From Mytilus trossulus (taxonomy: Eukaryota), in assembly GCF_036588685.1 (NCBI RefSeq), contig NC_086376.1:60698001-60762000 (forward strand): 64,000 nucleotides of DNA. Direction: 5' to 3'. A program made the position numbers and the translations under genes. Of this stretch, positions 25,221 to 28,200 are shown one piece after another. A model generated the notes under the pieces. It did no database searches, was not told where the DNA came from, and worked only from the letters and a program-made list of their open reading frames with translations. Within the stretch, counting starts at the first letter, position 1. Every line of letters begins with the position of its first letter.

Positions 25221-28200
25221 TAAGGTCTTTCCCCTTCGTGAGGTCTTTCCCCGACGTGAGGAAAGACCTTATTGTTTTTCTAATGTTTTTTTTTTTTCTT
25301 TTTCTTTTTCTTCCAGCATTTTTTTGGCAAGCCCTCCTACTGCTTCTATTGCAGTTATCAATACCAAATTTGAACCATCGATAGACCTCATCATGAAGTT
25401 GTACCAGATGAACTTTTGTAGGATTTCATCATCCCTTTGAGAATTTATCTCCCTTATAGTGATTTTTTTCAACATGCCCCCCCCCTCATTGTTTTGAAAG
25501 ATAATTATCATGACTTTATTTGGACAATAGGTAGATCTAATCATGATGTATTACCATATGAGGCTGCAAAGGATTTCATCATCCCCTATGAGAGTTATAT
25601 TCCCTTGAAACAATTTCTTTCCTTTGCATTTTTCTCAAAAAGTATGAGAGATAGAATCGATTTGAAAACGGCAACATGTACAGGAACAGATGGCAATGTT
25701 AATAAACATGTACAATCATTTTGTTATTAACCCTTATAAGGAGTTATTCCCCTTGAAAAATTGTACATAATTTTTGAAAAATTGTATTTCGAGAACCAGA
25801 AGTCGTAGAGACTTGGGACCTTCACCAATACTCTTTAATTCATGTGACCTTTAATATGCAGTCAAGGTCAAAGGTCACTGAGTGCAAAAAAATTACGCTG
25901 CAATTTCAGGCTTACATATCAGAAAAACGATAAAACTTTGCTGCATACATACAGCGTGTAAATTGTTCCTCTCGACGAACTCTACATTTTATACAAATAA
26001 GCCCAAAAATGTCCGACTGTCTGTTTAAAAGTTACAACGGGATGATTCTTAAAAGTGTAGTTTTGTGTGTATATCTTTTTAAAGGTAACATATATCAACC
26101 TACTATAAACTGCAAAGATGATCAGTAAGAGAAGACCTTCAGTTTGAGGTCAATGTCAGGTCATGATGAAATTTCACCTTGACCTTCACAGTATACTATG
26201 ACCTTGACCTTGTGATATTTGAAAGGTCAAGTGGTCCTGATTTGAATAGTCCCATGTCTCTACGACTTCTGGTTCTTAAGTTTGGTATTGCATCATATAT
26301 TTGATGATTAATTGTGACCTTGGTGAACTTTGAAATTGTCCCAATTCTTTTTCTATAATGTTGTCCTTCAACTGTAGATCATTTATCATTTAACAGATTT
26401 GAGATATCTATTGTCGTTTTAGAGATAATGCAGTTCGAAGTTTTGCGAGCGGAGGCGTGTATTTCTGAATCAACAACAGCTTTCCACTTAAAATGTTTTA
26501 GAAAATTTAGAAGTTAACATAGTTATATGTTTAACCAAATGCCAAAAACATTCCATGGAAAAAAACACGCCAAAAATTCAAATTGAAATTTTCACGTTTT
26601 GCATTGACTTAGTTAGTTTCATAACTTCTATTTATATAGTTGATATTGCATCATTTTTTGCACTTTGTCAAATGGGTTCATCTGATATATCAAATTGAAG
26701 GTCTTAATAAACTCTACTTATAAATGAAAATTTTAAACACCCTTTTCATCCCAGGGGGACGGGTGGGGTCATTTAGTGCACAAAAATAAATTTCTCAGAT
26801 GGTAAGGTTGTCGCATATCAAATGAAAGAACATAAAGTGTACATTTCAAATTTTAAATTGACGTCTTCCAAAAATGGGTTGGATGGGCGTATAAAATTAT
26901 AATCCTGGTACTTTTGATAACTATTTACACCACTGGGTCGATGCCACTGCTGGTGGACGTTTCGTCCCCGAGGGTATCACCAGCCCAGTAGTCAGCACTT
27001 CGGTGTTGACATGAATATCAATTATATGGTCATTTTTATAAATTTTCTGTTTAAAAAACTTTGAATTTTTCGAAAAACTAAGGATTTTCTTACCCCAGGA
27101 GTAGATTACCTTAGCCGTATTTGGCACAACTTTTTGCAATTTTGGGTCCTCAATGCTCTTCAACTTTGTATTTATTTGGCTTTTTTAACTATTTTGATAT
27201 GAGCGTCACTGATGAGTCTTATGTAGACGAAACGCGCGTCTGGCGTATAAAATTATAATCCTGGTACTTTTGATAACTATTATTGAGTGCAAACATTAAA
27301 TTTTGTTTTAAGATAGGGTTGTTGTATATCAAATGAAAGGTCATGATGTGTACATTTGATATATCAAATTCCCGACCTCCAAAAATTACTTGAATAGGGT
27401 TATTAAGTGCAAAAATCAAACTTTCTAGAACATCGCGTTGTCGCATATCAAATGAAAGCTCATCTACACTGTGTTGCATATATCATACTTCCGATCTCAA
27501 AAACGTAGGCGGATGAGGTCATTATGTGTAAAAAGCGAAAAGTTTCAGAAGGAATGCTTGTCGTATATCAAACGAAAGGTCGTACAAAGTACATTACCAA
27601 AACATCACTTTTACAGGAAAGACCTTTCAATTGTTTTACAAACAATTGAGATACTAGTTGTTTTTCTAATGTTTTTTTTTCTTCCAACATTTATTTGACA
27701 TGCGCTCCCCCCGTTACTATTGAAGTCATCAAGACCAAATATTGACCATCGATAGACCTTATTATGACGTATTACCAGATGAGGCTGTGTAGGATTTCAT
27801 CATCCCCTTTGAGAGTTATATCCCTTTGAAGCAATTTTTCTTTTTGCATTTTTCTTTAAAAGTAGTAGAGATAGAAAAGTAATTTAAAATGGCAGCATTA
27901 GGTACAGGAACAGATGGCAATGTTAATAAACAAAAAAAATCGTAGGTTATTTATCCTGATAAGGAGTTATTCCCCTTGAGAAATTATAAATTTTTAGAAA
28001 AATTATACTTCGAGAACCAGAAATCGTAGACTTGGGACCTTCACTAATATTCTTTAATTCATGTGACCTTTAATTTGCACCCAAGGTCAAAGGTCACTGA
28101 GTGCAATTTCAAGCTAACATATTAAGAAAACGATAAGACTTTGCTGCATACATACAGCGTATAAAATGGTCCTCTCGACGAGCTCTACATCTTATATGAT

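What the first reader, a model, noticed from the sequence alone, without database searches (positions are those of the whole stretch)
26886..27280. Retrozyme insertion with its empty site alongside: starts at the ribozyme cleavage site and is 1 monomer plus about 40 nt long
Seen: the insert begins ggcgtataaa, within about 1 nt of the predicted cleavage product 5' end (UGGCGU). It runs one about 356-nt monomer through an intact hammerhead and ends about 40 nt past the next cleavage site. The sister HINE unit (about 29090-29105, gatggggttattgag) lacks it, and no clear TSD is visible. Inference: a genomic footprint of reverse transcription of a self-cleaved, incompletely processed or circular RNA.
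Basis: partly seen in the sequence, partly recalled or inferred. Interest (0 to 1): 0.7.

Follow-up and report, generated by a model that had tools for sequence, protein, structure and literature searches.

The report
Mussel retrozyme copy; cut-site start chance
This is a real, young insertion of an abundant ribozyme-carrying repeat, likely the known mussel retrozyme, beside an empty copy of its landing site; most relatives examined stop at the same point while their starts are scattered, so its start next to the predicted ribozyme cut site is likely chance truncation during copying rather than a trace of self-cleavage.

Summary
In detail: a 392-396 nt retrozyme insert (356-nt monomer plus a perfect 40-nt repeat, intact type I hammerhead core) sits in a HINE-like host; the sister unit and 99 of 100 listed paralogous sites are empty; no TSD. 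The 3' end (+39..+46 after the predicted cut) is fixed family-wide, so any copy starting at the cut is automatically 'n monomers + 40'. I sampled 5' breakpoints in eight windows (34 of 356 positions). Among 58 monomer-scale inserts, starts a cleaved RNA could give (+1..+5) are at background (7 of 58, ratio 0.87, p=0.85); the a-priori window -2..+2 is 1.6-fold (p=0.14). The only excess lies upstream of the cut (-7..-1; 18 of 58, 2.3-fold, post hoc p=0.007), which a cleaved RNA lacks. This copy's start coincides with a GG microhomology to the target's G-run. Best reading: Penelope-type target-primed copying from a fixed internal start on a circular or uncut RNA, probably by a Naiad enzyme, truncated at random. 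The scan already noted the fixed end and Naiad hairpin on other DNA of this genome.

The parts
26886..27281 (+). Retrozyme insertion, maximal extent (unambiguous 26888-27279): phase +2..+4 to +39..+41 of the next monomer
26886..26887 (+). 5' junction: GG shared between repeat (+2,+3) and the target's G-run; one target G lost
26886..26925 (+). First copy of the 40-nt terminal redundancy
   Evidence: 100% identical to 27242-27281
26928..27000 (+). Predicted bulged stem-loop just 3' of the family's fixed end phase; its core motif also opens Naiad consensus sequences
   Evidence: fold -29.3 kcal/mol; motif in Naiad consensus starts
27201..27246 (+). Type I hammerhead: stem I, core CUGAUGA, stem II, GAAA, palindromic short stem III, predicted cut 27240|27241
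   Evidence: sequence; the 39-nt core-to-cut word has 10,054 exact genomic copies
27242..27281 (+). Second copy of the redundancy, ending at the family-wide fixed 3' end; TT at 27280-27281 shared with the target
25223..27659 (+). Host unit 1, HINE-like non-autonomous rolling-circle element carrying the insert
   Evidence: terminal modules; definition in PMC7492417
27660..29474 (+). Host unit 2 (tandem sister, 88-93% identical), with the empty site at 29090-29105

Best explanation
This is one young copy of an abundant hammerhead-bearing repeat that likely entered a HINE-like element by target-primed reverse transcription, likely starting at the family's fixed point about 41 bases past the predicted ribozyme cut, running back through an uncut or re-ligated cut site and one more monomer, and stopping, likely by ordinary truncation, where two G bases matched the target. 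Shown: insertion into an empty site, fixed 3' ends, scattered 5' ends, an intact internal junction, 2-nt matches at both junctions, a hairpin core shared with Naiad starts. Inferred: nicking and priming by a Penelope-like (probably Naiad) endonuclease/reverse transcriptase that binds the hairpin just downstream of the start; a circular monomer as template; joining of the cDNA end by microhomology.
For: Fixed 3' end: 3,065 genomic copies stop between +39 and +44 under a three-base exclusion pattern; in 199 inserts with an intact end motif the end falls at +39..+46, mode +41 (83 of 199), and the next two bases are T in 84% and 82%. Inserts anchored far from the end agree: 17 of 21 closed ones in the +86..+89 window, 10 of 15 in the +38..+44 window. 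Scattered 5' ends: in 30 copies picked by their 3' end, the 26 resolved starts spread over the monomer and only two, both about 40 nt long, lie within 4 nt of the cut; very short copies decline smoothly with length (117, 67, 76, 61, 53, 32 per position from +9 to -34) with no peak at the cut. Cut-compatible starts in monomer-scale inserts are at background (7 of 58, p=0.85). Other junctions with short TSDs show the same 2-4 nt 5' microhomology (L367, L369, L480, L320, L423). The redundant ends of 37 monomer-plus inserts differ by 3.0% within against 7.3% between inserts and share a 3-site haplotype in 29 of 35 (29% expected), as for one template lineage. Family RNA is abundant on the sense strand and 221, 264 and 564 reads cross the monomer junction in three runs of one study. 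The hairpin core stands near the start of 10 of the 11 Naiad consensus hits, including both Mytilus ones. Internal initiation without need for hammerhead cleavage is shown in vitro for a Penelope-like element (PMC11167929).
Against: Starts are not perfectly uniform: chi-square across eight windows p=0.037, with -7..+2 2.2-fold high (24 of 58, post hoc p=0.003) and its neighbours low. Four of 90 loci in the cut window are internal re-joins, three at +1/+2, against 2 of 325 in six other windows and 2 of 30 in the seventh, a weak hint of jumps from cleaved ends. One of three RNA runs lists 120 molecules ending at 26886, though 100 loose ends there continue into upstream repeat. Only 34 of 356 positions were sampled and counts are small. 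Circle and uncut linear multimer are not separated by these data. No Naiad ORF was found next to the hairpin in the fetched loci.
Confidence: 0.7

Rival explanations
1. One reading: the copying enzyme ran off the 5' end of a self-cleaved RNA (a partly processed dimer, or a linear monomer after one end-to-end jump), so the start marks the cut.
For: This start is 1-3 nt from the predicted cut. The -2..+2 window is 1.6-fold high and +1/+2 1.4-fold, neither significant. +1 is the commonest single start in that window (24 of 66). Three re-joins at +1/+2. Self-cleavage of the mussel repeat is published (PMC7229834). An unreviewed scan note reports cut-site joints in a vertebrate Penelope-type family (not tested).
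Against: +1..+5 is at background (7 of 58, p=0.85); 7 of 13 monomer-plus starts in the cut window and all 11 in the next window lie upstream of the cut, which a cleaved RNA cannot template; no step across the cut (34 against 32); the GG microhomology explains this junction locally.
Confidence: 0.15
2. Second-lap stall: on a circular template the enzyme finishes one lap, displaces its own cDNA through 41 AT-rich bases and tends to stop in the GC-rich block around the cut (+5..-8), so monomer-plus-40-to-48 inserts are a signature of rolling-circle copying.
For: Excess at -7..+2 only in the one-monomer-plus class (24 of 58, 2.2-fold) and not in first-lap short copies; that block is the most GC-rich stretch between -40 and +44.
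Against: The zone was chosen after seeing the data, among eight windows; inserts of two or more monomers show no excess there (4 loci, 3-5 per position); averaged with its depleted neighbours the region equals background.
Confidence: 0.12
3. The copy arose at DNA level (repair patch, gene conversion or capture by the rolling-circle host) from one of the many genomic arrays.
For: No TSD, 1-bp loss, microhomology at both ends; more than 10,000 donor copies; host is a rolling-circle-type element.
Against: Its 3' end is exactly the family's modal end with the usual TT, which DNA-level capture would not pick; no identical copy among the 39 scored candidates; the filled form occurs once in 100 listed host sites.
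Confidence: 0.03

Closest known systems
Metazoan non-LTR retrozymes, Mytilus galloprovincialis 350-390 bp repeats (Cervera and de la Pena 2020, PMC7229834: passages and Discussion read; review PMC7761336: passages read)
   Same: 356-nt non-coding AT-rich monomer, type I hammerhead, tandem and dispersed copies in the thousands, abundant RNA crossing the monomer junction.
   Different: The passages read give no end map or named helper; here the 3' end is fixed, 5' ends are truncated, TSDs are absent or short. Identity to their cloned sequences was not tested; the organism is inferred from family and genome layout.
Penelope-like element PAc of Anolis (Frangieh et al. 2024, PMC11167929: main text parts 1-2 read)
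   Same: Copies end at a fixed internal point downstream of a hammerhead cut; AT-rich targets; cleavage not needed for insertion.
   Different: PAc is autonomous and linear, starts in an AC-rich stem-loop with two start sites; this repeat has no ORF, probably a circular RNA, one major end and a rare second near +90.
Naiad Penelope-like elements (Craig et al. 2021, PMC8557442: passages and supplement file 1 hits read)
   Same: Hairpin core motif at the start of Naiad consensus sequences from molluscs and other invertebrates matches the repeat's hairpin just past its fixed end.
   Different: Naiads encode EN and RT and lack canonical hammerheads; only the short motif is shared; mobilisation in trans is untested.
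Vertebrate non-LTR retrozymes as PLE derivatives (Li et al. 2026 preprint 10.64898/2026.07.22.740005: parts 1-3 of 5 read)
   Same: Non-autonomous partner of PLEs; solo monomers read as offspring that cannot move again.
   Different: There the link is homology to hammerhead-bearing pseudo-LTRs in frogs; no breakpoint mapping in the parts read.

Membership tests
Non-LTR retrozyme | Type I hammerhead core in each unit | tested here: met
   Core and stems in sequence; no Rfam hit at gathering threshold
Non-LTR retrozyme | 150-450 bp non-coding units in tandem and dispersed copies, no LTR/PBS/PPT | tested here: met
   356-nt unit; arrays of 1 to more than 70 units; no ORF of 120 aa or more over the insert; PBS and PPT not searched
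Non-LTR retrozyme | Expressed as RNA that spans the monomer junction (circular or multimeric) | tested here: met
   Family-level only: 221-564 junction reads per run in three runs of one study; circle versus multimer not separated
Non-LTR retrozyme | Self-cleavage of the RNA | not testable with these tools
   Published for the mussel family (PMC7229834); read ends ambiguous
Non-LTR retrozyme | Two hammerheads in tandem, needed for an active copy | tested here: not met
   This copy has one complete hammerhead; it is an inactive offspring of the family
Penelope-like trans-mobilised element | Fixed 3' end from internal initiation, 5' truncation | tested here: met
Penelope-like trans-mobilised element | Recognition signal shared with an autonomous PLE | tested here: inconclusive
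   Motif shared with Naiad consensus starts; no Naiad ORF linked in fetched loci; function untested
   +1..+5 ratio 0.87, p=0.85; -7..-1 ratio 2.3
HINE (host) | 5' subterminal repeat with inverted partner, 3' subterminal repeat and palindrome, central tandem repeats | tested here: met
   definition from PMC7492417 passages
HINE (host) | Autonomous Helentron partner | not tested
   no search made

The most novel reading that the evidence does not exclude
Insertion ends record rolling-circle, target-primed reverse transcription of a ribozyme-made circular RNA by a Naiad enzyme: it binds the shared hairpin, starts at +41, completes a lap, displaces its own cDNA through the AT-rich 41 bases and stalls at the GC-rich hammerhead block, leaving a class of monomer-plus-40-to-48 inserts of which this is one.
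Probability: 0.15. Interest if true: 0.62.

Novelty: new member of a known kind. Interest (0 to 1): 0.3.

Why it matters
The copy itself is ordinary. Its use is as a clean filled/empty pair, and the family-wide test it prompted shows that hammerhead cleavage does not set the ends of these insertions: the end is set at the other side, at a fixed internal start beside a hairpin shared with Naiads. That fits the in vitro result for a Penelope-like element and bears on the open question of which enzyme moves animal retrozymes and from what template. If the second-lap excess survives a full map, it would be genomic evidence for copying from an RNA circle.

Tried and rejected
Rfam scan at gathering threshold: no hit. 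Folding the single hammerhead: no signal; a two-copy co-fold was run but not interpreted. An early reading of a 3-5-fold excess at the cut shrank as controls grew and moved upstream of the cut once flanking windows were added. Ratio of long to short copies was dropped as a test because short copies depend steeply on length. No peak at exact monomer length (9 loci, 14.5 per position). TSD search: matches of 7 nt or more in 16 of 199 inserts against 6 of 199 mismatched pairs, so short TSDs exist only in a minority. Search for a Penelope/Naiad ORF beside the repeat: 33 of 39 long ORFs in loci and 3 window ORFs scanned with Pfam; four RVT_1 hits, no GIY-YIG, none tied to the hairpin. Presence/absence among individuals: contigs of four DNA runs gave no listed piece across either filled junction and RNA reads with the empty form may be paralogues, so inconclusive. 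Inverted-repeat scan of the host was swamped by the 22-bp satellite. Not in print, as far as searched: searches returned no paper mapping retrozyme breakpoints or naming Naiads as helper; subscription papers, the supplements of PMC7229834 and PMC11167929 (not opened) and bioRxiv supplements (closed) may bear on this.

Full report
Observation. The insert and its empty sister site are real. Homology to the repeat spans 26886-27281: a 356-nt monomer plus a 40-nt perfect repeat, with one complete type I hammerhead whose predicted cut lies at 27240|27241. Positions below are counted from that cut (+1 is the first base after it). GG at the 5' junction and TT at the 3' junction belong equally to repeat and target, so the start is +2 to +4 and the end +39 to +41. 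The host site has four G in the sister unit and in nearly all paralogues; 99 of the first 100 listed of 188 sites are empty. One G is lost and there is no TSD. The host has the terminal modules of a HINE.

Family. The window lies on contig 4 of a 1.3-Gb genome; the 39-nt hammerhead word has 10,054 exact copies and the best relatives are 97-99% identical (39 of 1,046 candidates scored). Size, ribozyme and organisation match the Mytilus non-LTR retrozyme of PMC7229834; the species is inferred, not shown. Three RNA runs of one study show sense-strand depth of about 600-2,600 over the monomer against about 5-25 on the flanks, and 221, 264 and 564 reads crossing the monomer junction; these reads report the family, not this locus.

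The 3' end is fixed. 3,065 copies stop between +39 and +44 under a pattern that random flank passes about half the time. Of 199 fetched inserts with an intact end motif, ends fall at +39..+46, mode +41, followed by TT in over 80%.

The 5' test. Exclusion patterns counted breakpoints genome-wide in eight short windows: +6..+9, 249; +3..+6, 255; -2..+2, 201; -7..-4, 267; -11..-8, 124; -34..-31, 93; +86..+89, 41; +38..+44, 90. Listed places were taken in genome order and classified by script. Fetched of examined: 70 of 78, 55 of 59 (five shared with the first window; +6 starts not counted twice), 90 of 100, 50 of 67, 70 of 92, 50 of 77, 30 of 30 and 30 of 30. The skipped rows were judged by eye from the listed letters to be indel variants inside arrays or duplicates and were kept in the denominators; the -34..-31 estimate may therefore be low. 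Fetched loci with upstream repeat homology, re-joins, an inversion or duplicate flanks were dropped before counting. Rates were corrected for pattern pass rate and for word conservation (0.38-0.71, rough).

Result. Very short copies fall smoothly with length and show no peak at the cut. Monomer-scale inserts (58 loci, 310-430 nt) start at 13.9 per position overall: 5.6, 3.9, 20.6, 29.4, 6.9, 12.3, 15.6 and 14.5 in the order above. The window chosen beforehand, -2..+2, is 1.6-fold (13 of 58, p=0.14). Starts that a cleaved RNA could give, +1..+5, are 0.87-fold (7 of 58, p=0.85). Starts at -7..-1 are 2.3-fold (18 of 58, post hoc p=0.007). Over all length classes the cut window splits 34 to 32 across the cut. 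About 80 inserts like this one are expected in the genome from the sample, against about 55 under a flat profile, so meeting one in a 64-kb window is unremarkable. In an independent sample of 30 copies picked by their 3' end, none of the 26 resolved is a monomer-plus insert starting at the cut.

Against my reading. The profile is not flat (p=0.037); +1 is the commonest single start in its window (24 of 66); three of four re-joined loci there join at +1/+2; one RNA run lists 120 molecule ends at 26886, confounded by reads that continue into upstream repeat. A small contribution of cleaved templates is not excluded. Only 34 of 356 positions were sampled.

Mechanism. Shown: insertion, fixed end, scattered starts, intact internal junction, junction microhomologies, shared variants at both redundant ends. 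Inferred: an endonuclease nicks an AT-rich target, the freed end pairs with UU at +40/+41, reverse transcription starts internally and runs through the uncut or re-ligated cut site, and the cDNA end is joined where it matches the target, here GG. This follows the in vitro behaviour of the Penelope-like element PAc, which starts internally and does not need hammerhead cleavage (PMC11167929). A predicted hairpin begins a few bases past the fixed end. Earlier scan notes pointed to Naiads; I checked that the hairpin core stands near the start of 10 of 11 Naiad consensus hits in the supplement of PMC8557442, both Mytilus families included. I did not find a Naiad ORF linked to it in my loci. With one hammerhead this copy is predicted to be unable to release a monomer.

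The leftover oddity is the excess at -7..+2 on the second lap only. A stall of strand displacement at the first GC-rich block on a circular template would explain it, but longer arrays do not show it and the zone was picked after the fact. It is the most novel reading left open.

Verdict. A genuine, young, well-bounded copy of a known retrozyme family. The cleavage-footprint reading is not supported. The fixed end and Naiad signal were already noted by this scan on other DNA of this genome, as was another 1.1-mer starting at the cut; I found neither in print. Polymorphism among individuals remains open.

Noticed in passing
window 896-2268: 3.9-copy array of a second subfamily (about 92% to the insert), starting near +85 and ending at +44.
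   Followed up: partly
window 36017-36070 (-), 20818-20842, 55232-55387, 56562-56891, 12089-12168 (-): Further short or diverged copies; the two short ones end at the family end with starts at -10 and +17.
   Followed up: partly
L015-L017 and rows: A rare second 3' end near +88..+90, inside the hairpin, reminiscent of the two start sites that bound the PLE 'tail'.
   Followed up: partly
one search list, e.g. L062, L063, L074, L076: Loss of the single base at +1 inside arrays in 12 of 100 listed places (about 24 genome-wide) against about 10 for a neighbouring single-base loss (8 of 100 listed); possibly a ligation scar.
   Followed up: partly
L070, L229, L241, L247: Internal parts of the repeat joined directly to +1, +2 or -2; possible template jumps at cleaved ends.
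   Followed up: partly
L437, L442, L455, L469: A recurring insert starting at -7 with one shared flank, probably amplified inside another repeat.
   Followed up: no
L444, L068, L093, L167, L264: Hairpin variants in contexts unlike this retrozyme; other subfamilies or Naiad-related ends.
   Followed up: partly
L178:1574-2455: Tandem array of a unit of about 55 nt derived from the hairpin.
   Followed up: no
window 24056-24690: AT-rich 22-bp satellite with extensive internal inverted symmetry, 500 bp upstream of the host element.
   Followed up: no
window 30958-32013 (-): Uninterrupted 351-aa frame with a DHHC palmitoyltransferase domain.
   Followed up: partly
window 7089-7688 (+): Gly/Tyr/Trp-rich frame with a hydrophobic leader, like secreted structural proteins of bivalves (label recalled, not tested).
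   Followed up: no
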